Notes: generated by a model not told the origin, from the letters alone. Numbered from the stretch's first letter, positions 6,511-48,973 are shown. The stretch: DNA of 64,000 bases from Lentisphaerae bacterium GWF2_45_14 (GCA_001804785.1 MHBG01000072.1:53002-117001), one strand, 5' to 3'. Program-made: numbers and translations.

Positions 6511-6713
6511 CACCCGCCACCTACGAAAGAAACAATCACTATGCTGTCGGAATCCCTGAGAAGAGTGTTTTCCCAAACTTCGCCTCCCAGTATTTCACCA
6601 TTATGTTCGACTACTATTTTTTCGGGATTGAGTTCCTTGAGTCTAACGAATTCGCTTATTGAAATCGCTGTCCCGTCCAGTTCGATCATTTGGCCATTTA
6701 GATTTATTTTCAT
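6510..6713 (-). CDS. thiS: ThiS-type beta-grasp sulfur-carrier protein (C-terminal Gly-Gly)
   Basis: 67 aa from ATG 6713 (MKINLNGQMIELDG...), ending ...IVIVSFVGGG-stop. ATGA overlap with the upstream PLP-enzyme stop. Size, the NG...E pattern and the GG terminus are typical of ThiS/MoaD-like carriers. Confidence 0.75.
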   Translation of the reverse strand: MKINLNGQMIELDGTAISISEFVRLKELNPEKIVVEHNGEILGGEVWENTLLRDSDSIVIVSFVGGG

Positions 6714-7873
6714 CCTTTCGCGCTCCCGCAAAGGTCATCCAATAAATCTGTTACATCTTCGAGTCCCGGTGAAAGTCTGATAAGATTATCCGTAATTCCG
6801 GCCTTCAACCTTTCCTCTGCTGGCATGGCGGCATGGGACATTTTTGCCGGATAGGAAAGTATCGACTCCACCCCGCCGAGGCTTACCGCCACCGACCATA
6901 TTTTGACGTTCTTCATTATTCTTGAGGCGCGTTCCAGTGAATCCGTCTCAATCGAAAGTACGGCTCCAAACCCATCCGCCTGATCCGCCATTATGTTGTG
7001 ACCCGGATGATTCGGCAGTCCAGGGTAATAGACCTTTGAAACCCATTTCTGCTCTCTGAGCCTGAACGCCAGTTGTGACGCACTTTCCTGCTGTGCTTTT
7101 ATCCTCGCGCCAAGAGTTTTTATTCCTCTCATCAGCAGCCATGAATCGTTAGGTCCGAGCACCGCTCCGCAGGTATTCTGAACCGTGTAAACTTCATGTC
7201 CAAGCTCTTCTGTGGCAGTTATTACCGCTCCGGCTATCAGGTCGCTGTGTCCGCCGAGAAATTTTGTGGCGCTGTGCACGACGATATCGACGCCCAAGTC
7301 CAGAGGGCGGAAGAGATACGGCGACATAAAAGTATTGTCGATGATGCTTATGAGCTTGTGACTTCGGGCAATTTTTACAGCGCCTTCGACGTCTGTTATT
7401 TTTAGCAGGGGATTGGACGGGGTTTCCAGAAAGAGTACTTTTGTTTCCGGCAATATAGCTTTTTCGATATTCTGGAGATTGGTGGTGTCGACAAAAGTGT
7501 GCTTAATTCCGTATTTCACCAGAAACTTTGTAACAAGCCTGTAAGTGCCCCCGTAAATGTCCTGCGCTATCACCAGATGGTCGCCTTGCTTGAGAACCGC
7601 CATGAGAGCGGAACTGATGGCGGCCATTCCGGAAGCGAAAGCATAACCATTCGTGCCGTTTTCTAGCGCGGCGAGAGTATCCTCAAGCGCTTTTCTGGTA
7701 GGATTGCCGGAGCGGGAATAATCAAACGGCTGACGTTTGTCAACATCGTCCTGCGCGTAAGTCGATGCGTTAAAAATCGGAACGCTCAAAGCACCTGTTG
7801 AAGGATCTTTAGCGCCCGCTTCATGTAGAATCCGTGTATCGTAATTAAATCGTTTTCCGGGTTTGCTTTTCAT
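6710..7873 (-). CDS. Cys/Met-metabolism PLP enzyme (cystathionine gamma-synthase / beta-lyase / gamma-lyase family)
   Basis: 387 aa. Motifs YSRSGNPTR, DIYGGTYRL, VHSATKFLGGHSDLIAG (PLP-Lys) and RLSPGLED. ATGA overlaps at both ends. Confidence 0.85.
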   Translation of the reverse strand: MKSKPGKRFNYDTRILHEAGAKDPSTGALSVPIFNASTYAQDDVDKRQPFDYSRSGNPTRKALEDTLAALENGTNGYAFASGMAAISSALMAVLKQGDHLVIAQDIYGGTYRLVTKFLVKYGIKHTFVDTTNLQNIEKAILPETKVLFLETPSNPLLKITDVEGAVKIARSHKLISIIDNTFMSPYLFRPLDLGVDIVVHSATKFLGGHSDLIAGAVITATEELGHEVYTVQNTCGAVLGPNDSWLLMRGIKTLGARIKAQQESASQLAFRLREQKWVSKVYYPGLPNHPGHNIMADQADGFGAVLSIETDSLERASRIMKNVKIWSVAVSLGGVESILSYPAKMSHAAMPAEERLKAGITDNLIRLSPGLEDVTDLLDDLCGSAKG

Positions 7874-9009
7874 TTTTCCATTGCCTGTTTTAAGTCATTG
7901 ATGAGATCGTTTACGTCTTCTATTCCTATGGAAATCCTTAACAAGTCATCGGTAATCCCGATTCTGTTTCTGAGTTCCTCGGGGATATCGCTGTGGGTCT
8001 GTTTTGCCGGGTAGGTGATGAGCGTTTCAATGCCTCCCAGACTCTCCGCGAAACTGATTACTTTCACGTTGTTTATGATTTTTTCAACGAGAGATTTATC
8101 TTTGACAGAGAAGGAAAGCATCGCGCCTGGCCCGGCCGACTGGATTTTATGAATATCCGCATGCGGGTGAGATTCAAGCCCCGGATAGTAAACCCTTGCG
8201 ACCTGCCTCCTGGCAGAGAGCCACCTTGCGACTTTTTGCGCGTTTTCCTGTGAGCGCTGCATCCTGACGGAAAGAGTCTTCATCCCGCGAAGGATGAGCC
8301 AGCTGTCAAAGGGAGAAAGTACAGCGCCTGTAGCATTCTGGATAAAAGCAAGCCGTGCGCAAAGCTCGGAGCCGTTTGCTGCCAGAAGCCCCGCGAGAGT
8401 ATCATTGTGACCGCCGAGGAACTTTGTCCCGCTGTGCGCGACGATGTCGGCGCCAAGTAGAAGCGGCTGCTGCAGAAGCGGTGTCATAAGGGTATTGTCA
8501 ACAATGCAGAGAATATTGTTTTTATGCGCGAATGCTGATATTTTTCGGATGTCGGATATCTTGAGAAGGGGATTAGTCGGACTCTCTATGAAAACCGCTT
8601 TCGTTTTGTCCTTTATGAATGCTTTTTCAAGATTCTTGAAACATGTGGTGTCAACAAAACTCGCCGAAAGCCCGAACTGGCTGAAGACCTTGTCCAGAAG
8701 CCTGTATGTCCCCCCGTAAAGGTCGTCAGAGAAAATTATATGGTCACCGCTTTTGAAGAGCATAAAGACGGCTGTTATCGCGGCAAGGCCAGTCGAGAAC
8801 GCAAAACCTTTTTCGCCGCTTTCAAGAGCTGCGATGCTTTCCTCAAGTACCTTCCTCGTCGGATTGGATGATCTCGAATAGTCGAATCCCGTGGACTCTC
8901 CCAGGGCCGGATGGCGGAAGGTCGAAGTCTGGTAAATAGGGGTGCTTACCGCACCCGTGACGGGATCGCCGCAAAGTCCGGCATGCGCTATAGCGGTATC
9001 TAATTTCAT
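7870..9009 (-). CDS. Cys/Met-metabolism PLP enzyme, second paralog (cystathionine beta-lyase/gamma-synthase family)
   Basis: 379 aa. Motifs [36 protein letters not shown] and RISIGIED. Same family as 6710..7873, arranged like a metI-metC pair. Confidence 0.85.
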
Positions 9010-9938
9010 TTTAAATCACTTTCATCAAAGAGCCACGTGCTTAAGTATCTTTCCCCGTTATCAGGCAGGAGCACCACGATTAGTTTCCCTGCATTTTCTT
9101 TGCGGTTCGCGACCTGGAGCGCTGCCCACAGAGCGGCGCCTGACGAGATTCCGACAAGGATGCCTTCTTGCCTGGCCAATTCACGCGAGGTCGTTCCCGC
9201 GTCTTCTTCCTTGACCGGGATTATTTCATCCACGATGTCTTTATTGTAAACATCAGGGACAAAGCCGGCGCCGATTCCCTGTATTCTGTGAGAGCCGGGC
9301 GCGCCGCCTGAAAGTACCGGGGATTTTTCGGGTTCCACCGCAATAACCTGTACCGAGCTTTTTCTTGCCTTAAGAACTTCGCCGACACCGGTAACTGTGC
9401 CCCCCGTACCCACTCCGGCTATGAATATGTCCACTTGCCCATCTGTGTCTTTCCAGATTTCTTCAGCAGTCGTCTTCCTGTGGATCTCTGGATTGGCAGG
9501 GTTGTTGAACTGCTGCGGTATGAAGGAGCCGGGAATTTCCTTTGCAAGCTCTTCAGCCTTGAGAATAGCGCCCTTCATGCCCTTCACGCCTTCGGTCAAA
9601 ACCAATTCCGCGCCGAATGCCTTCAGAAGCTTGCGCCGTTCGATACTCATTGTCTCGGGCATGGTCAGGATGAGTCTGTACCCCTTGACCGCAGCGATAT
9701 AAGCCAGTCCTATGCCTGTGTTGCCGCTGGTCGGCTCTATTATAACTGAATCTTTCTTCAGTATCCCTCTTTTCTCAGCGTCGTCAATCATGGCGAAGCC
9801 AATCCTGTCTTTGACGCTTGAGAGCGGATTGAAGTATTCCAGCTTAACTGCCACTGTCGCCGGACTCTTATTCAGTTTATTGATTTTGACGAGCGGAGTG
9901 TTCCCTATAAGTTCCGTGATGTCTTTTGCTATTTTCAT
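9006..9938 (-). CDS. cysK: Cysteine synthase A (O-acetylserine sulfhydrylase) family
   Basis: Motifs [19 protein letters not shown] (PLP-Lys) and [12 protein letters not shown]. The track start 9947 is GTG. ATG 9938 ([17 protein letters not shown]) is preceded by GAGGTGA at about 5 nt. Confidence 0.85.
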
Positions 9939-9956
9939 GATACTCACCTCATTATT

Positions 9957-10400
9957 TTATATCGAATATGATATGCTTCCGTTTTCCATTTTATTCTTGT
10001 AGTCGTCTATTATCTTCTGGAGCGTTACGGCCTCGAGCACCTTGTATATCTCGCTCTGAAGCATCGACCATATATCCCTGGTGGGACAGAGGGCGAGGCG
10101 CTCACAGACGGATGAATTATTTACACACTCGACGGGACAGATGTCCCCTTCCAGCACTTCGACTATCTGCCGGACGGTGATTTCCGACGGCTTCTTGGCC
10201 AGAGTGTAGCCGCCGTGCGCGCCCCTTGACGCATTAATCAGCTTCGCCGCCTTCAGAGGTATGACCAGTTTGCTTAAGTATTTTTCTGACAGTGCCTGTC
10301 TTTCGGCGATATCTTTCAGGAAGACAGCACCTTTTTCATAGGCCAACGCAAGTTCGAACATTAACCTCAATCCATACCTGCTTCTTGTCGAAAGTTTCAT
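9957..10400 (-). CDS. Rrf2-family transcriptional regulator (CymR/IscR-like)
   Basis: 147 aa. MKLSTRSRYGLRLMFELA... winged-helix N-terminus typical of Rrf2. Cys residues at CPVECVNNSSVCERLALC. First gene of the sulfur operon. Confidence 0.85.
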   Translation of the reverse strand: MKLSTRSRYGLRLMFELALAYEKGAVFLKDIAERQALSEKYLSKLVIPLKAAKLINASRGAHGGYTLAKKPSEITVRQIVEVLEGDICPVECVNNSSVCERLALCPTRDIWSMLQSEIYKVLEAVTLQKIIDDYKNKMENGSISYSI

Positions 10401-12648: not shown

Positions 12649-12664
12649 TTAATATAGAGCAATA
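12649..12664. repeat. Direct repeat copy 1 (TTAATATAGAGCAATA) in the AT-rich spacer
   Basis: 15/16 identical to 12714..12729. Both lie in the 272-nt AT-rich spacer upstream of the MTHFR-like gene. Confidence 0.6.
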
Positions 12665-12713
12665 TTATGATACCCAAGAGCAGTAATGAGCTAAATATGC
12701 TATTGACTCTAGC

Positions 12714-12729
12714 TTAATATGGAGCAATA
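12714..12729. repeat. Direct repeat copy 2 (TTAATATGGAGCAATA)
   Basis: 15/16 identical to 12649..12664, 65 nt downstream of copy 1 and 49 nt upstream of the GTG at 12778. Confidence 0.6.
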
Positions 12730-12777
12730 ATAGAATATGAAAGCTAAAGTATAGTTTATTGATATACAATAAATCAA

Positions 12778-13575
12778 GTGAAGGCTGCGAAAGTGAATTT
12801 AAACTATAAACGTTACAGACTTGAAGTGAGCCCGCCCAAGCAGGCCGTTAACCATTTATCTGAAAGACTTACCCGTTTTGACGAGAAATATAATAAAGCA
12901 GTTGATGCGGGGCACTGTGTATGTGTAACAGATAATGCCATGGGCAATCTTGCATTTCAGGGGCACGAACTGATTCAGGAATTAAAGCTGCCGGTGCGTT
13001 TCGGACAAGTGATGATCCATTTGAATACTTTTCATACACTCTCTGACCTGCATTGGATCCTTGACTCATGCGGGGAACTTGGGATAAAAGAAATACTCGT
13101 GGTTTCCGGTGATGGATCGGTGCGACTCCCTAAACTCAAACCCTCTGAGATCGACTGCGATTCCGCATCGGTCACCTCCGTGGAGCTGTTGGGATATATT
13201 AGAAAAATATATGGCAGTGCATTTATTCTCGGCGCGGCCTTTAACCAGTATGAACCGGAGGCGCATGAGATTCTCAAATTCAGGCGCAAAATAGAAGCCG
13301 GAGCTGAATTCATTGTAACTCAGCCGATGGTAGGGCGCAATGAATTGATAGAGAAGGTCATGAGCAAAACAAAAATTCCTTTCATCATAGAGGCATGGAT
13401 GTCCCCGAATATTAAGCTTCTATCGGATTGCATAGGCTATAGCATTGCCAGCGAGGATACTTTTGATCCTATGGCGTGTCTCGAATCTCTTCGTAACGCT
13501 TACCCAGCCAATGGATTTTATCTGGCGCTGCTCGACTTCAAAACGCAGTTCAATAACTTTCAGATAAAGGCATAA
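12778..13575 (+). CDS. Methylenetetrahydrofolate reductase-fold protein (MetF-like)
   Basis: 265 aa with a GTG start (uncertain; a second GTG is at 12793). By-eye collinearity with E. coli MetF: EVSPPK~EFFPPR, VCVTDNAMG~VSVTYGA, IHLN~PHLT, ILVVSGDG~IVALRGD, AAFNQYEPEA~AAYPEVHPEA, KIEAGAEFIVTQP~KVDAGANRAITQ. Confidence 0.7.
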   Translation: MKAAKVNLNYKRYRLEVSPPKQAVNHLSERLTRFDEKYNKAVDAGHCVCVTDNAMGNLAFQGHELIQELKLPVRFGQVMIHLNTFHTLSDLHWILDSCGELGIKEILVVSGDGSVRLPKLKPSEIDCDSASVTSVELLGYIRKIYGSAFILGAAFNQYEPEAHEILKFRRKIEAGAEFIVTQPMVGRNELIEKVMSKTKIPFIIEAWMSPNIKLLSDCIGYSIASEDTFDPMACLESLRNAYPANGFYLALLDFKTQFNNFQIKA

Positions 13576-13576
13576 A

Positions 13577-14368
13577 ATGAAAATAGTTGTCTGCATCAAA
13601 CAAGTTCCCGGTGTTTCAAGTGTCAAAATAGACCCTGAAACAAAGCGGCTGATAAGGGATGGGGTCATTTCTGTGATTAATCCTTTCGACTACTATGCGC
13701 TGGAGGAAGCGCTCCGCCTGCGCGAGCTGCATGGCGGAAGTGTTACGGTCCTCAGTATGGGGCCGCAAAAGGCAGAACAGTCTATCCGAGAAGCTCTTGC
13801 CTTCGGAGCTGATAATGCGGTGCTGCTCTGTGATAAGCATTTTGCCGGGTCTGATACATGGGGTACAAGCTATGTGTTGGCGCTGGCTGTCAGAAAAATT
13901 GGGGATGTTGACTTGGTGCTCTGCGGCAAACAAGCTATTGATGGCGATACCGCGCAGGTGGGGCCTGGAATAGCGGCACACATGAAGGATTGGCCTCACG
14001 CCGCTGGCGTTTCCGCTATAAACGGAATTGAAGACCATATGTTGAGTGTGAATCGTATGATTGATGGCGGTTACGATGAGTGTCTGTTAACGCTTCCTGC
14101 CGTCTTGTCAGTGATTAAAGAGATAAACGAACCACGAGTCGCAAGATTGAAAGGTTGGCTCAAGGCAGAACATTCTTTGATCGATATCTGGGATGCCGAC
14201 CAGATAGGGGCCGATGTAAATCTCCTTGGATTGAATGGATCACCGACGCGTGTGGTTAAAACGACGCCTCCGAAAAGCAGAGACAGAAAAACAACATTCT
14301 TTGATGGAAGCGAAGCTGAGAGTGCCGGAAAACTTCTGTATGAACTGAGAATAATCTCCGCCATTTAA
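13577..14368 (+). CDS. etfB: Electron transfer flavoprotein beta subunit (clostridial/bifurcating-type sequence signature)
   Basis: MKIVVCIKQVPGVSSVKIDPETKRLIRDGV...NPFDYYALEEAL...CGKQAIDGDTAQVGPGIAAH. Near-collinear with Acidaminococcus fermentans EtfB (MNIVVCVKQVPDT...GRQAIDGDTAQVGPEIAEH). Confidence 0.9.
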   Translation: MKIVVCIKQVPGVSSVKIDPETKRLIRDGVISVINPFDYYALEEALRLRELHGGSVTVLSMGPQKAEQSIREALAFGADNAVLLCDKHFAGSDTWGTSYVLALAVRKIGDVDLVLCGKQAIDGDTAQVGPGIAAHMKDWPHAAGVSAINGIEDHMLSVNRMIDGGYDECLLTLPAVLSVIKEINEPRVARLKGWLKAEHSLIDIWDADQIGADVNLLGLNGSPTRVVKTTPPKSRDRKTTFFDGSEAESAGKLLYELRIISAI

Positions 14369-14379
14369 GGAAGAATAAT

Positions 14380-15402
14380 ATGTATATAAGCAATTTTCAG
14401 GAAAGACGGAAATACAATGGGATATGGGTACTTTGCGAACTCCGCGAAGGACAGATAGTTTCGGTTTCGCTTGAGCTTCTGGGAGCAGCCGCGGAGCTGG
14501 CTGCCAAACGGCCTCAGGCTGTGACCGCGATAGTTCTCTGTGATAAATTCAATGATGGCATTTTGCAGGCTTTATGGGCGTGCGGTGCCGACAGAGTCAT
14601 TGCCGTTGAGGATTCTTCGTTGAAATATTTCAATGATGAAGACCAGGCCGCAGTATTGAAACGGCTCATTGAAAAATATTCGCCCGAAATACTTCTCGCC
14701 GGAGCGACTGCCGTCGGTCGGTCCTTGATTCCGAGAGTCGCCGTAATGTGTCATTGCGGACTTACCGCCGATTGTACCAGACTTGATATCGAAAATGAAA
14801 CGGGCGCGCTGCTTCAGACACGTCCGGCGTTCGGCGGTAATTTGATGGCTACAATACGGTCGGATTCTTTTCTTCCGCAGATCGCCACGGTCAGGCCGGG
14901 AGTAATGAACGCCGTAGAACCTCAGACCGGAAGAGTAGGCATACTGATAAAAGAAAAAATGCTTTTATCGGAACATATGGGACTGAAAAAAGTAATCGGG
15001 GAATTGAGAAGCGAAGGCCTCTCAAATTACTTCGGAAGCGCATCCTTCATAGTCGCCGGCGGTCGCGGGATGAAGGGGCCGGAAGGGTTCAAGCTTCTGG
15101 AACGTTTTGCATCGAAAATCGGAGGCGTGCTGGGTGCGACACGCGCAGCAGTGGATGCAGGATGGGCACCATATGGAATACAGATAGGACAGACCGGCAA
15201 AACAGTTCAACCTAGGATTTATTTGGCATGCGGTATTTCCGGTCAGGTTCAGCACCTCGTAGGAATGCAGTCAAGCGATATGATCATCGCGATAAATCAT
15301 GATCGGGAGGCCCCAATCATGAGTATAGCGGATATTGCCATAGTAGGAGATGTTTTTTCTGTAATATCCAGTTTGCTCGATGCACTGACTCCGGTCGCTT
15401 AA
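14380..15402 (+). CDS. etfA: Electron transfer flavoprotein alpha subunit
   Basis: 340 aa. Motifs GLTADCTRLDIENETGALLQTRPAFGGNLMATI, VRPGV, AGGRGM, ATRAAVDAGW, QIGQTGKTVQPRIYLACGISGQVQHLVGM and AINHDREAPI. Confidence 0.9.
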   Translation: MYISNFQERRKYNGIWVLCELREGQIVSVSLELLGAAAELAAKRPQAVTAIVLCDKFNDGILQALWACGADRVIAVEDSSLKYFNDEDQAAVLKRLIEKYSPEILLAGATAVGRSLIPRVAVMCHCGLTADCTRLDIENETGALLQTRPAFGGNLMATIRSDSFLPQIATVRPGVMNAVEPQTGRVGILIKEKMLLSEHMGLKKVIGELRSEGLSNYFGSASFIVAGGRGMKGPEGFKLLERFASKIGGVLGATRAAVDAGWAPYGIQIGQTGKTVQPRIYLACGISGQVQHLVGMQSSDMIIAINHDREAPIMSIADIAIVGDVFSVISSLLDALTPVA

Positions 15403-15427
15403 ACAACAACCTTAATGGAGAATTAAT

Positions 15428-16309
15428 ATGCACTATCAGGATTTGACAATTATCGGCGAACGTATAAATCCGGGGTTCGCAAGCTCCAAAGCACTTTTTG
15501 ACAACAGTGATATTGACGGAATCTGTAAACTAGCGACGGAACAAGTCCAAAAGGGTGCGAAACACCTCAATATCAATATCGGCGCAAGAGCCATGACCGA
15601 TTCGGAATTTATGAAAGAAATTATCCTGAGAGTGCAGGATACAGTCAATGTTCCATTATCCTTTGATTTTCCTAACATGGAAGTACAGGAGCTTTGCCTG
15701 AAGATTTACGACCACCAAAAGGCATGCGGGCAGAAACCGGTAATAAATTCGATTAGTGAGCTTCGCTGGGAAATGACTGAACTCCTAAAAATCAGGCCGT
15801 GCAGAGTTTTGCTGATGGCCTCTGAACGCAGTGAGAACGGTGAAAAAATCGCCAATAAAACAGCCGATGAAGTTTTGGAAACAGCACGGCGCATGGTTAA
15901 AAAACTTACCGGATCCCACGGACTTTCAAACGATGATATTTTTATTGATGTTTCTGTCGGGCCTGTTGCTGTTGATATGGAAGGGCTGACCCGCATGGCG
16001 ATACAAGCCATCCGCAAAATAGGGTCATGCCCTGACATGAAGGGAGTACACATGTCTGTCGGGCTTTCAAATATCAGTATTATGGTACCGCCAAAAGCTC
16101 TTGACGGAAGCCCTCTTAAAGTTTTACTTGAGTCGGCGTTCCTGACAAATACGGTGCCCCATGGTCTTGATACTATAATTGGGACAGCGGGGAGAAACTA
16201 TCAATTTCTGGATAGCGACAATTTTGTATTACAGGGCTTCAATGAGGCCATGCAGTTGGATGATGTCGAATCAATTATGCGGATACAGCAGCTTTATAAG
16301 GAGGCATAA
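15428..16309 (+). CDS. Pterin-binding domain protein (methyl-H4folate methyltransferase, MeTr/AcsE/MetH-pterin-like)
   Basis: 293 aa. The hallmark LTIIGERINPGF start, then LNINIG, VINSIS, FIDVSVGP and VGLSN, collinear with Moorella MeTr (LIIGERING...LDLNVG...INSTN...IDPL...LGLSN). Confidence 0.75.
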   Translation: MHYQDLTIIGERINPGFASSKALFDNSDIDGICKLATEQVQKGAKHLNINIGARAMTDSEFMKEIILRVQDTVNVPLSFDFPNMEVQELCLKIYDHQKACGQKPVINSISELRWEMTELLKIRPCRVLLMASERSENGEKIANKTADEVLETARRMVKKLTGSHGLSNDDIFIDVSVGPVAVDMEGLTRMAIQAIRKIGSCPDMKGVHMSVGLSNISIMVPPKALDGSPLKVLLESAFLTNTVPHGLDTIIGTAGRNYQFLDSDNFVLQGFNEAMQLDDVESIMRIQQLYKEA

Positions 16310-17464
16310 ATGAAAGCGGAGAGCGAGATATTGGAAGTTAAGAGTTTTTTCGATGGAAAGAAACTCCATGATAAAGGGCCATATACTATTTTAGTTTCAA
16401 ATGGCAGATATCATTCCATCCTCAAAGGTACAGCTGATGAAAATTTCTTAAACCTCATGGACGCTTTCCGGCACGGGAAAGTTGTCAGGAAACTGGGGAA
16501 TTTTATAATGCCTTCGATGGTCGAGTCGCATTGCCATATCTTTCTCGACGGCGATGAACTGGACGCGCAAAAGCGTTCGGCCTATCTGAAATCGCCGCGT
16601 GAAAAATTAGTGGAAACCGCATGGCGAAACATAGAAAAATATCGTGCGAAAGGAATAAGGACAATAAGGGATGCCGGAGATATTCATGGAATCAACAACG
16701 GACTAAGGGACATTCTTAAGAATTCAGATATGACTGTTATAAGCGCAGGGAGGGGCATTCGAAAGAAAAAGCGTTACGGAAGTTTCATGGCGCACGAAGT
16801 CGAGGATAGTTGCGACATTAGAGATGCTATAAAAAAAATAGCGGAAACCGCCGATACCGTAAAGATAATATTGACCGGAATAATCGATTTTGAAAATGGT
16901 ACAGTAAAAGATCCATTCCAATTTGACGCGGATGAAATGCGCCTGATAGTCGAAATATCACATTCTCTGGGACTTAAGACGTTCGTGCATTGCAGCGGAA
17001 AAGACGGACTCAGGATTGCCGTCGAATCAGGAGTCGATTCCATCGAGCACGGCTTTTTCATGAGTGAAGACATACTTGAACAGATGGCTTTGAAAAAAAT
17101 AGCATGGTCACCGACTTTCATTCCTGTCCATTTCCAATATGCTTTTCCGGAATACTGCGGATGGAATCCAGCAACGGTCGATAAACTCAACGCCATACTT
17201 GAAAACCACAGCATTCATCTGTGCAAAGCCCATAAGATGGGTATATCGATACTTGCCGGCTCCGACGGCGGTAGTTATGGAGTAAAGCACGGAGAGGGAC
17301 TTTTTGAAGAACTGGCTTTGATGCGTAAAGCGGGATTGCCGCATGATGCCGTCTTGAACGCCGCCACCCTTGCGCCGAGGGAACACTTTGGCTTGGCCTC
17401 AAACGCAATATCAATAGGCAATAAAGCTGATTATATTTGCCTTGAAAAATTCCCTCTGGCTTGA
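16310..17464 (+). CDS. Metal-dependent amidohydrolase (COG1228-like)
   Basis: 384 aa. HxH in PSMVESHCHIFLDG, later FVHCSG, IEHGFF and LAGSDGG metal/active-site positions. The start abuts the upstream stop (TAAATG). Confidence 0.75.
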   Translation: MKAESEILEVKSFFDGKKLHDKGPYTILVSNGRYHSILKGTADENFLNLMDAFRHGKVVRKLGNFIMPSMVESHCHIFLDGDELDAQKRSAYLKSPREKLVETAWRNIEKYRAKGIRTIRDAGDIHGINNGLRDILKNSDMTVISAGRGIRKKKRYGSFMAHEVEDSCDIRDAIKKIAETADTVKIILTGIIDFENGTVKDPFQFDADEMRLIVEISHSLGLKTFVHCSGKDGLRIAVESGVDSIEHGFFMSEDILEQMALKKIAWSPTFIPVHFQYAFPEYCGWNPATVDKLNAILENHSIHLCKAHKMGISILAGSDGGSYGVKHGEGLFEELALMRKAGLPHDAVLNAATLAPREHFGLASNAISIGNKADYICLEKFPLA

Positions 17465-17498
17465 AGTTATTCATATATTCGGTTACTATATTTGTCCA

Positions 17499-18551
17499 AT
17501 GTGTATGGAGGATTTTTTGAAGAGCAGAGCGTTTATGATGGCAGTAATGGCAGCTGCAATGTTCGGGATGTCCATCCCGTTTTCAAAAACCTTGCTCTCA
17601 GACCTGCCGTTGACTCAGCTTGCAGGCCTCCTGTATCTTGGTGCGGGTATTTTTCTTCTTCCTTTTATAATCTGCAGAAAACGAACTGGGAATATAGTTT
17701 TTCCACGGGATTCCCGCAATCGACTTAATCTATTGGCTGCTATTTTCTTCGGTGGAATTATTGGGCCTATTTTGCTTCTGATCGGCTTGAAATGTTCGCT
17801 GTCGGCTTCTGTCTCAATGTGGCTGAATCTTGAATCCGTTGCCACTGCAGTGATTGCGTTTTTCCTTTTCCGTGAACATATGGGCAAGTGGACATGGATT
17901 GGCAATATCGGAGTTGTCATGTCCGGAATCCTGCTTAGTTTTAACGGGGGCTGGTCCGGCTGGATTGGCCTGCTTTGTATAAGCGGCGCGGCAATAGCAT
18001 GGGGCTTGGACAATAATTTTACTGCCGTGATTGACAGCATCAGCCCGGAGGCGAGCACATTCTGGAAAGGGGTGATTGCCGGTTCGATAAATTTAATTAT
18101 CGGAATTTCCTTTTTTACATGGCATATTTCTTCTGCTTGGTTCTGGGCTTTGTTACTGGGCGGGTTGTCTTATGGATTTAGTATCACTCTTTATATACGG
18201 GCGGCACAAGGATTAGGGGCTGTCCGGGCGCAGATGATATTTGCGTCGTCTCCATTTTTCGGCGTAGCCTTTTCGCTGATTTGGCTCAGGGAAGAGATAA
18301 GTGTAATTCAGATTTTTGCCGGAATAATTCTGGCGGCGGCAGTTGCGTTGATATTCGCCGATCGGCATGAGCATGTTCATTTACATGATGTGTTAAGCCA
18401 TGAACATGAACATATTCATAATGACAAGCATCACGGTCATGAACATCCAGTCATGCCGGATGGTTTTCACTCACACCCTCATGTCCATGAAGCACTCAGC
18501 CACACTCATCCCCACTGGCCTGATCTGCACCACCGTCACCATAATGCATAA
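17499..18551 (+). CDS. EamA/DMT-family transporter with a histidine-rich C-terminal tail
   Basis: About 10 predicted TM segments with two EamA-like halves. The last ~60 aa are HEHVHLHDVLSHEHEHIHNDKHHGHEHPVMPDGFHSHPHVHEALSHTHPHWPDLHHRHHNA. The start is uncertain: the track's 17442 overlaps the amidohydrolase, and ATGs at 17499 and 17505 are more plausible. Confidence 0.75.
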   Translation: MCMEDFLKSRAFMMAVMAAAMFGMSIPFSKTLLSDLPLTQLAGLLYLGAGIFLLPFIICRKRTGNIVFPRDSRNRLNLLAAIFFGGIIGPILLLIGLKCSLSASVSMWLNLESVATAVIAFFLFREHMGKWTWIGNIGVVMSGILLSFNGGWSGWIGLLCISGAAIAWGLDNNFTAVIDSISPEASTFWKGVIAGSINLIIGISFFTWHISSAWFWALLLGGLSYGFSITLYIRAAQGLGAVRAQMIFASSPFFGVAFSLIWLREEISVIQIFAGIILAAAVALIFADRHEHVHLHDVLSHEHEHIHNDKHHGHEHPVMPDGFHSHPHVHEALSHTHPHWPDLHHRHHNA

Positions 18552-20995: not shown

Positions 20996-23131
20996 TCAGT
21001 TTAATATTTCAAGAATTTTACAGTTGATTTTCCAGGAAGCAAGCGTTGAAACCATAGACGAAACAGTAGCTTCAGAACTTATCAGCGGATTGAAATGCTC
21101 ATTTTTATTTCCAAGTGATTTAAATGTCGGTTCGCCTATCGACATTGCCGCCTTTCCCCGCAGAGCTTCAATGGTAAAGGATTTTATAAAGGCATCAACG
21201 CCTGAGGGACTGGTAAAGAGGGCCGCATCAAAATCGGGAAGAGTGCTGTAATTCAGAGGACTATTGTTGTAAAAATGAAATTCCTCCAGCGCCGGAAAAG
21301 CATCTCTCATCTTGTTAGTGGCCCGGGATAAAGCCTTGTCTGAACACAATTTAATCATTCGCTCTCCGGCTTTTAAGCGTTTTTTTAATGCGACAATAAG
21401 TCCTTCAGTTCCAAAGTTTTCCTCTGTACAAATGGCCGGATATATATGTTTTTCGCTGAAAACCGCCGCCGTCCCGAGGCCGCAGATTGCGATTTGGGGG
21501 AGCTTTCGGATATCTGTAGACGTTTTTTCCATTAGTTCTATCAGGAGTACGGCGCATGATGGAGATGGAACAATCAGCCAGTCGACATTCAGAATGTATT
21601 CCAAATGCGACTGGGCATCGGGGGCGAGACTCAATTCTATCATAGGCAAAAATATTGCTTCGGCACCAAACATTTCAATACTTTGCGCCGCTTCTCCGAA
21701 CAAACGGCGACTTCCCGTAAACAATATCTTCATGCCGCCCAAGGCACCGTAACTGGAATAAAGGAAACGGCTGTCAGCGTTTTTCCCGGCTATGATAATA
21801 CCGGGACAGGAATTATTCTTCACGGTCGGATTTTCGGCGATATCATCAAGGGTGCCGCATGCAATGATTGGCGATGGCGAGCCTGCGTTATACACGACCG
21901 CGACCGGAAGGCTTCCCGGACAACCGTCTTTCTTGAGAGCAACAGAAATTTCATTTATATCAGTCGCCCCCATAAAATAGACCTGCGGAAAGCTTTTTCG
22001 TTCGTCTTCTGAAAACCATTCGATGTCTCCTGTCCCCGATTTTCTGGGAGTCGCCACTGTAAATCCCCTTGAAAGTCCCCGCCGAGTGAGGAGAAGACCT
22101 GTGGATGTAGTCGCGGCGCTCAAGCTTGTAACACCGGGAAGCACTTTGAAAGGGAATTCAAGGTCGTCCATTATGCTGAGTTCTTCGGCAAGTCTGCCGA
22201 AGATGCCGGGGTCGCCGCCCTTCAGCCTGACAACGGATTTCCCTTTACGGGCATAAGCGGCAATAAGGGTACAGATTTCCTCCTGCGAATGTGAATGTGC
22301 CCCTTTTCTTTTTCCTGCAAATAAACGTTCAGCCGTTTGCGGCGTATATTCAAGGAGTTCCGCAGGACACAATGCATCATAAAGGCAGACATCGCACGAC
22401 TTGAGCGCATTTACCACAGCGACGGTAGCATTATTCGCAGAACCTGAACCAGCTCCTGCGAAGATAACTGGTTTGACGAAAAGTTTTCTTATGAGGTTGA
22501 ATATCCTGTCGCCTTTTCTAAACGTTACGGCGAGGTAACCCTGACCTTCCGGCGGAGTCAGTTCTTCAAGCGGAATAAATTCTGTAATCCTATGTGACAA
22601 ATTAATCCTGTTCAGACCCGCCGCAGCCATAATAAGTAAATCATATTTGCCTTCGTCAAGCTGGGCTATGCGCTGTTCGATATCGCCTCTTATCGAAAGT
22701 ATGTTGCCTTCAGGAAAGCGCTGGCGGCAGTATTCCTCTCTACGCGCACTGCTGATTCCGATTCGTGGCTTTCGTGGTATTTCTCCATCGCTTTGGGGAA
22801 GAATGACGGCGTCTCGTGGGTCTTCTCGCCAGGGCAGTCGGAAAAAGTCAAGCCCTTCTCTAAGCTGTTCAGGCATGTCTTTGGCGCTATGAACGGCACA
22901 GTCGATCTCTCCTGCCGTTATGGTATCGTCCAGGTCTCTGGTAAAGAAATCCGGCGGAGTCTCACGGATATCAGTGATTTTATCCCTGTCGCCGGGCGAG
23001 GATATCTGTATAGTTTTGAAGTTTAATGAAGGGAGAAGCTTTCGCAGCCTATTCAATGCGTTTTCTGTCTGCGCGAGAGAAAGCCTGCTTGGTCTGGTGC
23101 CCGTCAATAAAACCTTTGATAAATTTTTCAT
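20996..23131 (-). CDS. Tri-domain fusion: HemC-like (domains 1-2 only) :: uroporphyrinogen-III C-methyltransferase (CobA/SUMT) :: uroporphyrinogen-III synthase (HemD)
   Basis: One uninterrupted ORF. N-terminal ~225 aa: TRPSRLSLAQTE...ISSPGDRD...IDCAVHSAKDMP...REDPRDA...SSARREEY...IRGDIEQRIAQLDEGKYDLLIMAAAGLNRI...PPEGQGYLAV (HemC). Middle: VIFAGAGSGS...CLYDAL...VVRLKGGDPGIFGRLAEE...VLPGVTS (SUMT). C-terminal ~250 aa are HemD-like. The track start 23152 is TTG; the first ATG is 23131. Confidence 0.85.
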   Translation of the reverse strand: MKNLSKVLLTGTRPSRLSLAQTENALNRLRKLLPSLNFKTIQISSPGDRDKITDIRETPPDFFTRDLDDTITAGEIDCAVHSAKDMPEQLREGLDFFRLPWREDPRDAVILPQSDGEIPRKPRIGISSARREEYCRQRFPEGNILSIRGDIEQRIAQLDEGKYDLLIMAAAGLNRINLSHRITEFIPLEELTPPEGQGYLAVTFRKGDRIFNLIRKLFVKPVIFAGAGSGSANNATVAVVNALKSCDVCLYDALCPAELLEYTPQTAERLFAGKRKGAHSHSQEEICTLIAAYARKGKSVVRLKGGDPGIFGRLAEELSIMDDLEFPFKVLPGVTSLSAATTSTGLLLTRRGLSRGFTVATPRKSGTGDIEWFSEDERKSFPQVYFMGATDINEISVALKKDGCPGSLPVAVVYNAGSPSPIIACGTLDDIAENPTVKNNSCPGIIIAGKNADSRFLYSSYGALGGMKILFTGSRRLFGEAAQSIEMFGAEAIFLPMIELSLAPDAQSHLEYILNVDWLIVPSPSCAVLLIELMEKTSTDIRKLPQIAICGLGTAAVFSEKHIYPAICTEENFGTEGLIVALKKRLKAGERMIKLCSDKALSRATNKMRDAFPALEEFHFYNNSPLNYSTLPDFDAALFTSPSGVDAFIKSFTIEALRGKAAMSIGEPTFKSLGNKNEHFNPLISSEATVSSMVSTLASWKINCKILEILN

Positions 23132-24548
23132 AAGTATCTCTATGTTCGTCAATAATCTTTTCAGCTTTTGCGAATACCTGCACCATATCGCAGGTATTGC
23201 GGCTATGCCAGTGCTTCAGATCTTCGATGTTTGTAAATTTTACGTCCTTGCGGAGTTCTGCCAGATTTTTAGATATATTTCTGGGCATGCCCAGATCGAT
23301 TACTTCCGCTCCCGGCTTGAAATATTTATCGAGAATTCCGCATATGGTCGGTTTGTCAAGGGAAAGCGCAGTGATCAGAATATCTGTCTCCGGAAGTACC
23401 CTGCCCAAATCATCAAGGCTGAGAATGTTGACATCCGGATCTTTGTCCGTCGGGCGTTTTGAATGATAAACCCATGTGATTCTGGATTTTTTTTCAAGAA
23501 ATATGTTTTTTATGTTCTTGCCGACAACACCCGTTCCTATTATGGTAATGCGGCGATTGCGGAAATCAGGCATTTTTGATGCTATAAAGTTCATTGCGAT
23601 ATCTTCGATCTCAATTTCTTTAAGCAGATCTGAAGTTTCATTTCGTATATGCTTTGTCACGTGAAGCACATTGTTTTGCAAGACATGAAAAACCGGGCCC
23701 GCCCAGTTCTTTTTCTGTGCATAAACGCAGGCATTTTTAAACTGCGCCGTTATGTTATTTTCTCCGGGGGTTTGAGAGTAAAGGCCTGAAGTGCAAAGGC
23801 AGAGATGCTTAAAAGCGTCGTAGGCGGTTTTTATGTAGTACTCTTCTTTTGCCAGGGAATCAAATCTCAGAATCGTTGTAAGGATGTCGATAAGCGGCGA
23901 ACTGTTTCGGGCGGCGGCGATGAATTCTATCCGGTTGCATGTATTCAAAAGGACGAAACCCTGAATTCCCCATATATTCATAATCATTTCGCCGGCATGG
24001 TCGAATCGCAAGCCCGAAAGGTGCAAAGACTCACGCATTTTCAGGGGCAGAATCCTCTGGTCGGTCCCAATCACTATAAGTTCCGTATTTTCTACTGATT
24101 CGATATGCCTGGCCAAGTTTTCTTTTATGAGTTTTGTTTTACGGCATGCTGTGCCCTGACTTGAAACAGAAATGGTGATTTCCTTGTGTCGGATGCTCGC
24201 GGGAGTGATGAAAGAACCCTTTTGCCAACCCTTGTCGACGGCGCAGGCCAGTATTTTTGCATTTTCCGCAAGCATAATGATTTTGTTATTAAGGGCATGG
24301 TCATCTGTCGCCGCGTACACGAGGAACATTCCGTCGAGATCGGAATCCCTGAAGGGGCGTTCATTGAGAGTAAGAAGACTGCTGTCGGCAAGCTCCCTTA
24401 TGCGTGCCGACGGCTCTGTCGCGACAACGGTCACTTCGGCAGCAAAGTCCAGAAGTTTCAGAACCTTCCTCAACGCCACTTTGCCGCCGCCGAGCACCAA
24501 GCATTTTTTTCCGTTCAGCAATAAGTTGACGGGGTAAGCTGTAATCAT
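23049..24548 (-). CDS. Fusion: siroheme-synthase N-domain (precorrin-2 dehydrogenase/ferrochelatase, SirC/CysG-N/Met8-like) :: glutamyl-tRNA reductase (HemA)
   Basis: aa 1-150: NGKKCLVLGGGKVALRKVLKLLDFAAEVTVVA...LVYAATDDHALNNKI (CysG-N Rossmann). From about aa 155: LIVIGTDQRILPLKMRE...LLNTCNRIEFI (HemA active-site Cys motif) and IIGTGVVGKN (NADPH site). Confidence 0.85.
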   Translation of the reverse strand: MITAYPVNLLLNGKKCLVLGGGKVALRKVLKLLDFAAEVTVVATEPSARIRELADSSLLTLNERPFRDSDLDGMFLVYAATDDHALNNKIIMLAENAKILACAVDKGWQKGSFITPASIRHKEITISVSSQGTACRKTKLIKENLARHIESVENTELIVIGTDQRILPLKMRESLHLSGLRFDHAGEMIMNIWGIQGFVLLNTCNRIEFIAAARNSSPLIDILTTILRFDSLAKEEYYIKTAYDAFKHLCLCTSGLYSQTPGENNITAQFKNACVYAQKKNWAGPVFHVLQNNVLHVTKHIRNETSDLLKEIEIEDIAMNFIASKMPDFRNRRITIIGTGVVGKNIKNIFLEKKSRITWVYHSKRPTDKDPDVNILSLDDLGRVLPETDILITALSLDKPTICGILDKYFKPGAEVIDLGMPRNISKNLAELRKDVKFTNIEDLKHWHSRNTCDMVQVFAKAEKIIDEHRDTYEKFIKGFIDGHQTKQAFSRADRKRIE

Positions 24549-26500: not shown

Positions 26501-26542
26501 TTATCTTTCTCCGTGTTAAAATGCTTCCCAATCCTGTTCTTT

Positions 26543-28342: not shown

Positions 28343-28357
28343 AGTATTATCCTTAAA

Positions 28358-29251: not shown

Positions 29252-29263
29252 TGCGACACCTTC

Positions 29264-40634: not shown

Positions 40635-40639
40635 CAATC

Positions 40640-48017: not shown

Positions 48018-48122
48018 ATTTAATATAGATGCAGCTTGATTTGGCGGGCTCGACACGACTCAAGCCGACATGGCCTGTTGCAGGTACATGGGGTATAACG
48101 AATAAAAAAAGGAAAGTAGAAA

Positions 48123-48947: not shown

Positions 48948-48973
48948 CAAGGAAAAGAGAGGCGGGCCGGAGC

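What the first reader, a model, noticed from the sequence alone, without database searches (positions are those of the whole stretch)
12778..17464. MTHFR-fold protein clustered with bifurcating-type EtfBA, a pterin-binding methyltransferase and an amidohydrolase: candidate undescribed Etf-coupled C1/folate module
Five co-directional genes have gaps of 1, 11, 25 and 0 nt.
- A MetF-like protein keeps the EFFPP-like Glu and the (S/R)GD Asp.
- EtfB carries CGKQAIDGDTAQVGP, the same string as in the electron-bifurcating EtfB of Acidaminococcus and Clostridia, rather than the AMP-binding respiratory type.
- EtfA follows.
- A protein starts with the IIGERIN pterin-binding hallmark of methyl-H4folate methyltransferases.
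- Last is an HxH amidohydrolase.

The characterised MTHFR partner sets I know are MetF alone, MetFV (with or without RnfC2) and MetFV-HdrABC-MvhD. An EtfAB partner has been speculated for some acetogens but, to my knowledge, not demonstrated. Neither MetV, Hdr nor a corrinoid protein is encoded here. The arrangement suggests that methyl groups on H4folate are oxidised or reduced with Etf (NADH/ferredoxin) as redox partner. The amidohydrolase hints at an upstream substrate-releasing step.
Basis: partly seen in the sequence, partly recalled or inferred. Interest (0 to 1): 0.72.

Follow-up and report, generated by a model that had tools for sequence, protein, structure and literature searches.

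The report
Etf-coupled methylene-tetrahydrofolate reductase operon
A very divergent methylene-tetrahydrofolate reductase is almost always encoded next to a bifurcating-type electron-transfer flavoprotein in hundreds of anaerobic species, which points to an undescribed enzyme type that would let the long-debated energy coupling of this C1 step be tested.

Summary
Window 12778-17464 (+) holds five tightly packed genes: an MTHFR-fold protein, EtfB, EtfA, a pterin-binding methyltransferase (PtMT) and a metal-dependent amidohydrolase.

- **MetF-like protein.** It has the MTHFR TIM-barrel fold and keeps the equivalents of E. coli Glu28, Asp120 and Gln183. It belongs to a tight clade far from canonical MetF.
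- **Etf.** Both subunits match the five solved bifurcating Etfs about twice as well as non-bifurcating ones.
- **Synteny.** EtfB directly follows the MetF-like gene in 72 of 74 testable loci from several phyla. The neighbours are often a methyl-THF:corrinoid methyltransferase, formate-THF ligase, FocA, FolD, corrinoid protein and its activase.
- **Replacement.** In other PVC bacteria the same PtMT-amidohydrolase pair follows a MetV-MetF fusion, within corrinoid methyltransferase operons. In the window, MetF-like plus EtfBA takes that position.

Best reading: an Etf-dependent MTHFR serving a methyl-THF module. It probably oxidises methyl-THF from corrinoid-dependent demethylation, possibly by NAD+/ferredoxin confurcation. 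Direction, ferredoxin coupling and flavin content are inferred, not shown. The amidohydrolase role is unknown. None of the papers I could search describes an Etf-type MTHFR.

The parts
12649..12737 (+). Two copies of a 24-nt direct repeat (12649-12672 and 12714-12737), 65 nt apart, in the AT-rich 272-nt gap upstream of the operon. This may be a regulator binding site.
   Evidence: the repeat finder. A sigma-70-like hexamer pair lies at 12703-12731, but such matches are no more frequent here than in shuffled sequence. Function not tested.
12778..13575 (+). MetF-like protein (265 aa), a divergent MTHFR-fold TIM barrel. Proposed catalytic subunit acting on methylene-/methyl-THF.
   Evidence: PF02219, 56.3 bits. 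AF2 model pLDDT 90.7. The top Foldseek hits are all MTHFRs, TM 0.65-0.72. E16, H81, D112, K171 and Q182 align with E. coli E28, H88, D120, K172 and Q183 and are invariant in 70 homologues.
13577..14368 (+). EtfB (263 aa), bifurcating-type small subunit carrying the DGDTAQVGP motif.
   Evidence: PF01012. Best PDB matches are CarD, C. difficile EtfB, T. maritima EtfB, LctB and A. fermentans EtfB at 189-204 bits, against 107 bits or less for non-bifurcating Etfs.
14380..15402 (+). EtfA (340 aa), large subunit with the alpha-FAD domain and no N-terminal ferredoxin domain.
   Evidence: PF01012 plus PF00766. Bifurcating EtfA structures score 221-286 bits, against 146 or less for non-bifurcating ones. 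The alignment starts at CarE residue 66.
15428..16309 (+). Pterin-binding methyltransferase (293 aa), like the MetH folate domain or AcsE. Proposed methyl-corrinoid:THF methyltransferase (MT II).
   Evidence: PF00809. Best PDB matches are the T. thermophilus MetH folate domain and the C. hydrogenoformans MeTr; the D, N, D and SN(I/V)S folate-site positions are aligned. The subfamily sits in corrinoid methyltransferase operons.
16310..17464 (+). Amidohydrolase (384 aa) with a complete binuclear metal site. It is a conserved partner of this PtMT subfamily. Substrate unknown.
   Evidence: PF01979. Nearest structures are the ochratoxin amidohydrolase ADH3 and Arg carboxypeptidases. H74, H76, K185, H227, H247 and D319 are invariant in 9 orthologues. 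It lies directly downstream of the PtMT in all 8 homologous loci checked except L087, where an 89-aa ORF intervenes.
17442..18551 (+). EamA-family transporter with a His-rich C-terminal tail. It overlaps the amidohydrolase 3' end and may be co-transcribed. It is not conserved in the orthologous operons.
   Evidence: PF00892. Absent downstream in L003.

Best explanation
The first three genes encode a three-subunit, Etf-dependent methylene-THF reductase / methyl-THF dehydrogenase.

**Proposed mechanism.** The MetF-like barrel binds the folate, and presumably a flavin. EtfBA supplies the NAD(H) site on EtfB and carries electrons through its two FADs. The complex takes the place that a MetV-MetF fusion holds in related operons.

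**Role of the other genes.** The pterin-binding methyltransferase moves methyl groups between a small corrinoid protein, encoded elsewhere in this genome, and THF.

**Most likely physiological direction.** Oxidation of methyl-THF produced by corrinoid-dependent demethylation. The carbon would continue through FolD and formate-THF ligase to formate, yielding ATP.

**Energetics.** The methylene-/methyl-THF couple (about -200 mV) is too positive to reduce NAD+ (-320 mV) on its own. The bifurcating-type Etf would therefore couple the reaction to oxidation of reduced ferredoxin (confurcation), as lactate dehydrogenase-EtfAB does. Run in reverse, it would be a ferredoxin-reducing bifurcating MTHFR.

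**Shown here:** the families, the fold, the conserved residues, the synteny, the replacement of MetVF and the C1/corrinoid neighbourhood.

**Inferred:** complex formation, flavin in the MetF-like subunit, the direction, and ferredoxin coupling.

**Unknown:** the role of the amidohydrolase.
For: **The first protein is an MTHFR-type enzyme.**
- It passes the Pfam MTHFR cut-off.
- The confident AF2 model matches only MTHFR structures at the top of the Foldseek list.
- The E28, D120 and Q183 equivalents are invariant.

**The Etf is of the bifurcating type.**
- Both subunits score about twice as high against all five solved bifurcating Etfs as against non-bifurcating ones.

**The three genes behave as a unit.**
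- 344 stretches in the GTDB species-representative genomes encode the MetF-like protein.
- EtfB lies directly downstream in 72 of 74 testable loci.
- No acyl-CoA dehydrogenase, LDH/GlcD or FixCX family appears among the 25 commonest families in 100 flanking proteins.
- MetF-like distances track EtfB and EtfA distances (r 0.87 and 0.88, Mantel p 0.001). That is close to EtfA against EtfB (0.94) and above MetF-like against PtMT (0.61).

**The neighbourhood is C1 and corrinoid metabolism (81 loci).**
- PtMT 53, FTHFS 27, FocA 16, corrinoid protein 14, PocR regulator 10, FolD 7, RACo 6, URO-D/MtaA-like methyltransferases 6.

**MetF-like plus EtfBA replaces MetVF.**
- The window-type PtMT-amidohydrolase pair follows a DUF5981(MetV)-MTHFR fusion in 5 of 6 other PVC loci. 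Corrinoid protein, RACo and URO-D genes are nearby in four of the five; L089 shows URO-D genes only.

**It is not simply the only MTHFR of the cell.**
- Two loci also carry a canonical MetF a few kb away, with a MetV-like stretch upstream in L009.

**Precedents (my own knowledge).**
- MetF2 in the chloromethane cmu pathway and MetF with LigM/LigH in Sphingobium oxidise methyl-THF that comes from demethylation.
- Ldh-EtfAB confurcates at an almost identical potential.
Against: - There is no biochemical evidence of any kind.
- Flavin binding by the MetF-like subunit is not established. The canonical TYGAGG and LRGD motifs are changed to TDNAMG and SGDG, and flavin-independent MTHFRs exist in mycobacteria.
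- The 64-kb window has no corrinoid protein, activase, substrate methyltransferase, FolD, FTHFS or FocA.
- In the window the operon sits among cysteine/methionine, sulfate-assimilation and cofactor biosynthesis genes.
- In Atribacterota a homocysteine-biosynthesis gene follows the PtMT. Both points favour an anabolic, methionine-related role.
- In C. thermosuccinogenes the triad has no C1 neighbour at all.
- At least one complex with a bifurcating-type Etf does not bifurcate: the C. propionicum acryloyl-CoA reductase (Sewell et al., PMC5736913, read).
- I could not check whether the host genomes carry CODH/ACS, so a reductive, acetogenic role in some hosts is not excluded.
Confidence: 0.62

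Rival explanations
1. Anabolic reading. The complex is a biosynthetic MTHFR that makes methyl-THF for methionine. The PtMT, a corrinoid protein, RACo and a URO-D-type thiol methyltransferase would together act as a split cobalamin-dependent methionine synthase.
For: - Two Cys/Met PLP enzymes, CysK and the sulfate-assimilation genes flank the operon in the window.
- HcyBio lies directly after the PtMT in two Atribacterota loci.
- MetRS is near the operon in L003 and MetK in L088.
- The PtMT is closest to the folate domain of MetH.
- MtaA-type URO-D enzymes methylate thiols (my own knowledge).
Against: - An NADH-dependent single-subunit MetF is sufficient and exergonic for biosynthesis, so a three-subunit bifurcating-type Etf is hard to justify for a low-flux step.
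- Canonical MetF genes co-occur a few kb away in two loci.
- Up to three URO-D paralogues, sugar ABC transporters and LacI, AraC, PocR or MEDS regulators in the operons resemble catabolic demethylases.
- No S-methyl_trans homocysteine-binding domain appears in the neighbourhoods examined.
- No SAM or B12 riboswitch lies upstream.
Confidence: 0.2
2. The complex is an Etf-dependent MTHFR without energy coupling. EtfBA only supplies an NADH-binding input module, as RnfC2 does in the A. woodii enzyme. The reaction would be a simple NADH:methylene-THF oxidoreduction with no ferredoxin involved.
For: - MetF-like proteins, like MetF of the MetVF types, may lack their own NADH site.
- The C. propionicum acryloyl-CoA reductase has a bifurcating-type Etf but does not reduce ferredoxin (Sewell et al., PMC5736913, read).
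- NCBIfam finds AcrA/AcrB-like similarity, though below the cut-offs.
Against: - Both subunits are closest to Etfs that do bifurcate.
- Apart from the acryloyl-CoA reductase, the characterised complexes with this Etf type bifurcate (my own knowledge).
- Methyl-THF oxidation with NAD+ alone is endergonic.
Confidence: 0.25
3. The MetF-like barrel does not act on methylene-/methyl-THF. It uses another pterin or N-methylene substrate, or serves as a folate-binding rather than a redox protein, and Etf serves a different reaction.
For: - Sequence similarity to canonical MTHFR is very low: 45 bits or less against PDB MTHFRs and far below the NCBIfam equivalog cut-offs.
- The C-terminal third does not align with the Pfam profile.
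- An MTHFR-like protein of unknown function that binds 5-methyl-THF exists (PDB 3IJD).
Against: - The three catalytic and folate-binding residues are invariant.
- It occupies the operon position of MetVF.
- Its neighbours are THF C1 enzymes.
Confidence: 0.08

Closest known systems
MetVF-type methylene-THF reductases of anaerobes: types II-IV of Oppinger et al. 2021 (PMC8760232), or the 2S/3S/6S/X types of Yi et al. 2021 (PMC8515935)
   Same: - An MTHFR-fold catalytic subunit receives or donates electrons through a separate redox module rather than binding NAD(P)H itself.
- It is encoded with C1/THF genes.
- In PVC operons the MetV-MetF fusion and the MetF-like-EtfBA set occupy the same position, upstream of the same PtMT-amidohydrolase pair.
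   Different: - There is no MetV (zinc/FeS) subunit and no Hdr, RnfC2 or NuoEFG.
- The partner is a flavin-only EtfBA.
- The catalytic subunit belongs to a separate, tight clade (55 bits or less to other MTHFRs).
- Neither classification lists an Etf type.
Lactate dehydrogenase-EtfAB (LctBCD, A. woodii; PDB 7QH2), together with the other Etf-based bifurcating complexes Bcd-EtfAB and CarCDE
   Same: - A bifurcating-type EtfBA is encoded next to its dehydrogenase.
- The substrate couple (about -190 to -200 mV) cannot reduce NAD+ alone, so confurcation with reduced ferredoxin would solve the same thermodynamic problem.
   Different: - The partner is an MTHFR TIM barrel, not an acyl-CoA dehydrogenase or a GlcD/FAD-binding-4 oxidase.
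- EtfA lacks the N-terminal ferredoxin domain of LctC and CarE.
- Coupling has not been shown.
Methyl-THF oxidation branches attached to demethylases: the cmu chloromethane pathway (CmuA/CmuB-MetF2-FolD-PurU) and LigM/DesA-MetF-LigH of Sphingobium (my own knowledge)
   Same: - A dedicated MTHFR paralogue is clustered with a methyl-to-THF methyltransferase and with enzymes that carry the carbon on to formate.
- A second, canonical MetF can coexist with it.
   Different: - Those are aerobes with ordinary single-subunit MetF.
- Here the hosts are anaerobes, the MTHFR is Etf-linked, and formate-THF ligase plus FocA replace PurU or LigH.
Three-component corrinoid O-demethylase / methyltransferase systems of anaerobes (MT I, corrinoid protein, MT II, activating enzyme), for example in Acetobacterium, Desulfitobacterium and Moorella (Mtv)
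   Same: The orthologous operons hold URO-D/MtaA-like MT I candidates, a small B12-binding protein, a pterin-binding MT II and a RACo-type activase.
   Different: - In the window only MT II is present.
- The systems carry an additional conserved amidohydrolase and their own MTHFR.
- The hosts are PVC bacteria and other fermenters, not known acetogens.

Membership tests
MTHFR superfamily (PF02219) | Passes the curated Pfam profile cut-off | tested here: met
   56.3 bits against a cut-off of 24. The match covers only profile positions 11-183 of 287.
MTHFR superfamily (PF02219) | MTHFR-type (beta/alpha)8 barrel fold | tested here: met
   AF2 pLDDT 90.7, pTM 0.88. Foldseek ranks 1-32 are all MTHFR or MTHFR-like structures, E down to 3e-13, TM 0.55-0.72.
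MTHFR superfamily (PF02219) | Catalytic Glu and folate-binding Asp and Gln (E. coli E28, D120, Q183) | tested here: met
They are invariant in 70 homologues.
MTHFR superfamily (PF02219) | Bound flavin (FAD or FMN) | tested here: inconclusive
   T51, H81 and K171 align with the FAD-contacting T59, H88 and K172. However, Y60-G-A-G-G and R118 are replaced by D-N-A-M-G and S110. The model is nearer to FAD-dependent structures (TM 0.65-0.72) than to FAD-independent ones (about 0.55). No cofactor modelling was possible.
Canonical MetF (NCBIfam equivalogs TIGR00676 / TIGR00677) | Score above the equivalog cut-off | tested here: not met
   39.5 against 293.7 and 43.7 against 310. In 1.8 billion representatives the family drops from above 200 bits to 55 bits or less for other MTHFRs.
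MetVF-type MTHFR | A MetV (DUF5981 / MTHFR_C) subunit or domain next to MetF | tested here: not met
   No MetV-like sequence in the window. No DUF5981 in the Pfam scans.
Bifurcating (group 2) Etf | EtfB of the second-FAD type rather than the AMP-binding type | tested here: met
   The DGDTAQVGP motif is present. Five bifurcating EtfB structures score 189-204 bits against 107 or less for non-bifurcating ones. The same pattern holds for EtfA, 221-286 against 146 or less.
Bifurcating (group 2) Etf | Demonstrated NADH-dependent ferredoxin reduction coupled to a high-potential acceptor | not testable with these tools
   This needs enzyme assays.
Etf-dehydrogenase complex | Partner oxidoreductase consistently encoded next to etfBA | tested here: met
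   EtfB is adjacent in 72 of 74 loci. Distances are correlated at r 0.87-0.88. No alternative partner family appears among the 25 commonest families in the flanking proteins. Physical association was not tested.
Corrinoid-dependent methyltransferase system (MT I / CoP / MT II / activase) | Pterin-binding MT II | tested here: met
   PF00809, 61.5 bits. Folate-site residues align with those of the MetH folate domain.
Corrinoid-dependent methyltransferase system (MT I / CoP / MT II / activase) | Corrinoid protein, activase and substrate-specific MT I in the same locus | tested here: not met
   Absent from the 64-kb window. Present in part or in full in the orthologous operons L085-L090.

The most novel reading that the evidence does not exclude
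MetF-like-EtfBA is a true flavin-based electron-bifurcating/confurcating MTHFR.

The reaction would be: methylene-THF + 2 NADH + oxidised ferredoxin <-> methyl-THF + 2 NAD+ + reduced ferredoxin.

This is the energy-coupled MTHFR postulated for anaerobic C1 metabolism since about 2010 and never found. It would be spread by horizontal transfer through at least six phyla. Non-acetogenic fermenters would use it to oxidise methyl groups from methylated substrates, possibly methylated sugars, to formate with ATP gain.
Probability: 0.4. Interest if true: 0.88.

Novelty: new variant of a known kind. Interest (0 to 1): 0.78.

Why it matters
**The open question.** How the methylene-THF/methyl-THF step is coupled to energy conservation is unresolved. 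Known MTHFR types either use NADH without coupling, consume reduced ferredoxin, or have an unknown second acceptor (PMC8760232, PMC8515935). EtfAB coupling was proposed for C. ljungdahlii and then judged unlikely there (PMC8515935).

**What this finding adds.** A genetically fixed MetF-like-EtfBA unit gives a concrete enzyme to test. It occurs in hundreds of species, including the cultured Clostridium thermosuccinogenes.

**If it confurcates.** That would explain how anaerobes without an acetyl-CoA synthase can oxidise methyl groups. It would also add a new partner class to the Etf bifurcation family.

**Side result.** A conserved PVC operon came to light: MTHFR, PtMT, amidohydrolase, corrinoid protein, activase and URO-D methyltransferases. 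It may be an anaerobic demethylation system for substrates not yet identified.

Tried and rejected
- **Riboswitch or leader regulation.** There is no Rfam hit in the window, at gathering scores or at E up to 1 upstream of the operon. Seven related loci have none next to the triad.
- **Missing partners in the window.** tblastn for corrinoid protein, RACo, URO-D, DUF1638, MetVF, FTHFS, FolD and FocA found none.
- **Another Etf partner.** No acyl-CoA dehydrogenase, LDH/GlcD or FixCX family appears among the 25 commonest families in 100 flanking proteins.
- **A substrate-specific enzyme conserved beyond the module.** The flanks are heterogeneous. URO-D is the only recurrent family.
- **Sequence search of the MetF-like protein against PDB.** The top hits were spurious matches to designed armadillo-repeat proteins. 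The real MTHFR matches were weak, so I used a profile search and a fold search instead.
- **Identity of the amidohydrolase.** It is not an MtaD, HutI or prolidase equivalog in NCBIfam (best 84.8 bits against a cut-off of 500). Its nearest structures are carboxypeptidase-like amidases. No substrate could be assigned.
- **Literature.** Ten full-text searches and nine papers opened, of which four read closely (PMC8515935, PMC8760232, PMC5736913, PMC13391211), gave no description of an Etf-linked MTHFR. Subscription-only papers are not covered.
- **Not possible here.** Whole-genome checks for CODH/ACS or canonical metF, multimer structure prediction, and docking of FAD into the model.

Full report
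**1. What is in the window**

The region 12778-17464 holds five co-directional ORFs with gaps of 1, 11, 25 and 0 nt. Pfam places them above the gathering scores in MTHFR (PF02219), ETF (PF01012), ETF plus ETF_alpha (PF01012, PF00766), Pterin_bind (PF00809) and Amidohydro_1 (PF01979).

An EamA transporter with a His-rich tail overlaps the last gene.

A 272-nt AT-rich gap precedes the operon. It carries a 24-nt direct repeat and no Rfam element.

**2. The first protein is an MTHFR-fold enzyme, but not a canonical MetF**

- The Pfam match covers only the first two-thirds of the profile.
- NCBIfam MetF equivalogs score about 40 bits against cut-offs near 300.
- Sequence and profile searches of PDB reach only 25-45 bits to MTHFRs.
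- An AlphaFold2 model built on 70 homologues is confident (pLDDT 90.7). Its best Foldseek matches are exclusively MTHFR structures: T. thermophilus, yeast, human, C. thermophilum and E. coli, with TM 0.65-0.72. The flavin-independent mycobacterial enzymes match less well, at about 0.55.
These residues are invariant or nearly so in 70 homologues.
- Some flavin-contacting positions differ: TDNAMG replaces TYGAGG and SGDG replaces LRGD. Flavin binding is therefore plausible but not established.
- An exhaustive HMM search of 1.8 billion representative proteins shows a tight family. About 15 full-length clusters score above 200 bits, and the next group, ordinary MTHFRs, scores 55 bits or less.

**3. 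The Etf is of the bifurcating type**

- EtfB scores 189-204 bits against CarD (6FAH), C. difficile EtfB (5OL2), T. maritima EtfB (7KOE), LctB (7QH2) and A. fermentans EtfB (4KPU). It scores 107 bits or less against human, Paracoccus and Methylophilus Etf.
- EtfA shows the same split, 221-286 bits against 146 or less. It lacks the N-terminal ferredoxin domain of CarE and LctC.

**4. The triad is a conserved unit**

- The MetF-like protein has 772 database relatives.
- A scan of one genome per GTDB species found 344 encoding stretches. The 80 loci retrieved come from Lentisphaeria/Victivallales, Spirochaetales (including Treponema MAGs), Planctomycetota, many Bacillota, Atribacterota and a Deltaproteobacteria MAG.
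- A Clostridium thermosuccinogenes protein (named) carries the same triad at its locus L001.
- In 81 non-redundant loci, EtfB lies immediately downstream on the same strand in 72 of the 74 with enough sequence to tell. EtfA follows.
- Pairwise distances of MetF-like correlate with those of EtfB (r 0.87) and EtfA (r 0.88), Mantel p 0.001. This is almost as strong as EtfA against EtfB (0.94) and stronger than against the neighbouring methyltransferase (0.61).
- None of the known Etf partners (acyl-CoA dehydrogenase, LDH/GlcD, FixCX) appears among the 25 commonest families in 100 flanking proteins.

**5. The neighbourhood is THF C1 and corrinoid methyl-transfer metabolism**

Within 10 kb of the triad, out of 81 loci:

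| Neighbour | Loci |
|---|---|
| Pterin-binding methyl-THF:corrinoid methyltransferase | 53 |
| Formate-THF ligase | 27 |
| FocA formate channel | 16 |
| Small B12-binding corrinoid protein | 14 |
| PocR-AraC regulator | 10 |
| FolD | 7 |
| RACo-type corrinoid activase | 6 |
| URO-D/MtaA-like methyltransferase | 6 |

- The common form of the methyltransferase passes the NCBIfam cut-off, 344 against 259.
- Some spirochaete loci carry the whole series: PtMT, MetF-like, EtfB, EtfA, FTHFS, FolD, FocA, corrinoid protein and RACo, together with a MEDS-domain regulator.

**6. The PtMT-amidohydrolase pair and the replacement argument**

- The window's PtMT belongs to a separate subfamily. It is only 25-32% identical to the common one and is closest to the MetH folate domain.
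- This subfamily is abundant in PVC bacteria.
- In six loci from other organisms the amidohydrolase follows this PtMT, directly in five and after an 89-aa ORF in L087. The amidohydrolase start is often within 0-3 nt of the PtMT stop or overlaps it.
- In five of those six loci the pair is directly preceded by a DUF5981(MetV)-MTHFR fusion. Corrinoid protein, RACo and URO-D genes lie nearby in four of the five; L089 shows URO-D genes only, and DUF1638 appears in two loci.
- In the window, and in the Lentisphaeria and Victivallaceae loci L003 and L011, that upstream position is taken by MetF-like-EtfB-EtfA.
- Replacement of one MTHFR type by another at the same operon position is the strongest contextual argument that MetF-like-EtfBA performs the MTHFR reaction.
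- The amidohydrolase keeps all binuclear-metal ligands: H74, H76, K185, H227, H247 and D319. It most resembles carboxypeptidase-like amidases. Its substrate is unknown.

**7. Direction and mechanism**

Two readings are possible.

*Catabolic.* Methyl groups taken from a substrate by URO-D-type MT I enzymes pass through the corrinoid protein and PtMT to THF. MetF-like-EtfBA oxidises methyl-THF. FolD and FTHFS then yield formate plus ATP, and FocA exports the formate. Four points favour this:
- The operon architecture is that of O-demethylase-type systems, with several MT I paralogues, transporters and catabolic-type regulators.
- Canonical MetF genes co-occur a few kb away in two loci.
- Methyl-THF-oxidising MetF paralogues are known in the cmu and LigM pathways (my own knowledge).
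- Thermodynamics: about -200 mV against -320 mV is the same problem that Ldh-EtfAB solves by confurcation with reduced ferredoxin.

*Anabolic (methionine).* Three points favour this:
- The window's own surroundings are two Cys/Met PLP enzymes, CysK, sulfate assimilation, thiamine and haem/sirohaem genes.
- HcyBio follows the PtMT in Atribacterota.
- MetRS and MetK lie nearby in two loci.

I rate the catabolic, reversible, Etf-coupled reading as the most likely. The direction is not settled. Ferredoxin coupling is an inference from the Etf type only.

**8. Host and wider context**

The rest of the window encodes sulfatases, GH-like and CBM proteins and LacI regulators. The closest homologues come from Lentisphaeria MAGs. 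The host therefore looks like a PVC-type degrader of sulfated glycans, not a known acetogen.

**9. Comparison with what is known**

- The two recent MTHFR classifications list MetF alone, MetVF, MetVF-RnfC2, MetVF-HdrABC-MvhD and a NuoEFG-MetFV candidate. Neither lists an Etf type.
- Yi et al. state that EtfAB coupling had been proposed and judge it unlikely in C. ljungdahlii, because each etfAB set there has its own neighbouring dehydrogenase gene.
- Ten full-text searches found no paper describing a MetF-Etf unit. Subscription-only literature was not searchable.

**10. Verdict**

This is best classed as a new variant of a known kind: a new subunit architecture of MTHFR and a new partner class for bifurcating-type Etf.

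It is of high interest because a long-standing bioenergetic question becomes testable with a defined three-gene unit that is present in a cultured organism.

Noticed in passing
window 12649-12672 and 12714-12737: A 24-nt direct repeat (TTAATATAGAGCAATATTATGATA / TTAATATGGAGCAATAATAGAATA), 65 nt apart, lies in the AT-rich gap upstream of the operon. It may be a regulator site. No PocR/AraC regulator gene is adjacent here, unlike in L003.
   Followed up: partly
window 17442-18551 (+): An EamA-family transporter carries a C-terminal tail of about 60 residues rich in His (HEHEHIH..., HPHVH...). It overlaps the amidohydrolase stop by 23 nt. It is not conserved in the orthologous operons.
   Followed up: partly
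window 20996-24548 (-): Two unusual tetrapyrrole gene fusions. One is a 718-aa HemC + uroporphyrinogen methyltransferase + HemD protein. The other is a 499-aa protein joining a sirohaem-synthase-like NAD_binding_7 domain to glutamyl-tRNA reductase. They sit next to hemB and hemL.
   Followed up: no
window 6710-10400 (-) and 24887-30025 (-): Sulfur-amino-acid context on both sides of the operon: two Cys_Met_Meta_PP enzymes, CysK, an Rrf2 regulator, sulfite reductase, CysN (with a partial APS-kinase domain), CysD and CysH. This may hint at a link to methionine metabolism.
   Followed up: partly
L085-L090 (PVC metagenome and MAG loci): A conserved operon of [DUF5981-MTHFR fusion]-PtMT-amidohydrolase-corrinoid protein-RACo-(DUF1638 or an unknown protein of about 240 aa)-URO-D methyltransferases. 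Sugar ABC transporters or LacI regulators are nearby in some of the loci. It appears uncharacterised and could be an anaerobic demethylation system.
   Followed up: partly
L055 13800-14978 and L076 14024-15196: In Atribacterota a homocysteine-biosynthesis gene (PF01837) directly follows the PtMT of the MetF-like-EtfBA cluster. Two URO-D genes and a multi-component ABC transporter lie upstream.
   Followed up: no
L009 11731-13373 and L076 4992-5903: A canonical MetF is encoded within a few kb of the MetF-like-EtfBA triad in a spirochaete and an Atribacterota genome; in L009 a MetV-like stretch lies just upstream of it. Two MTHFR types therefore coexist in one genome.
   Followed up: partly
L034 and L068: These are the only two loci where the MetF-like gene is not followed by etfBA. 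In L034 it is followed directly by FTHFS and FocA.
   Followed up: no
window 34172-36553, 40631-41926, 47193-49705 (+): Several sizeable ORFs (793, 431, 274, 274 and 243 aa) have no Pfam match. They lie among glycan-degradation genes. A DDE transposase is at 42214-43512.
   Followed up: no
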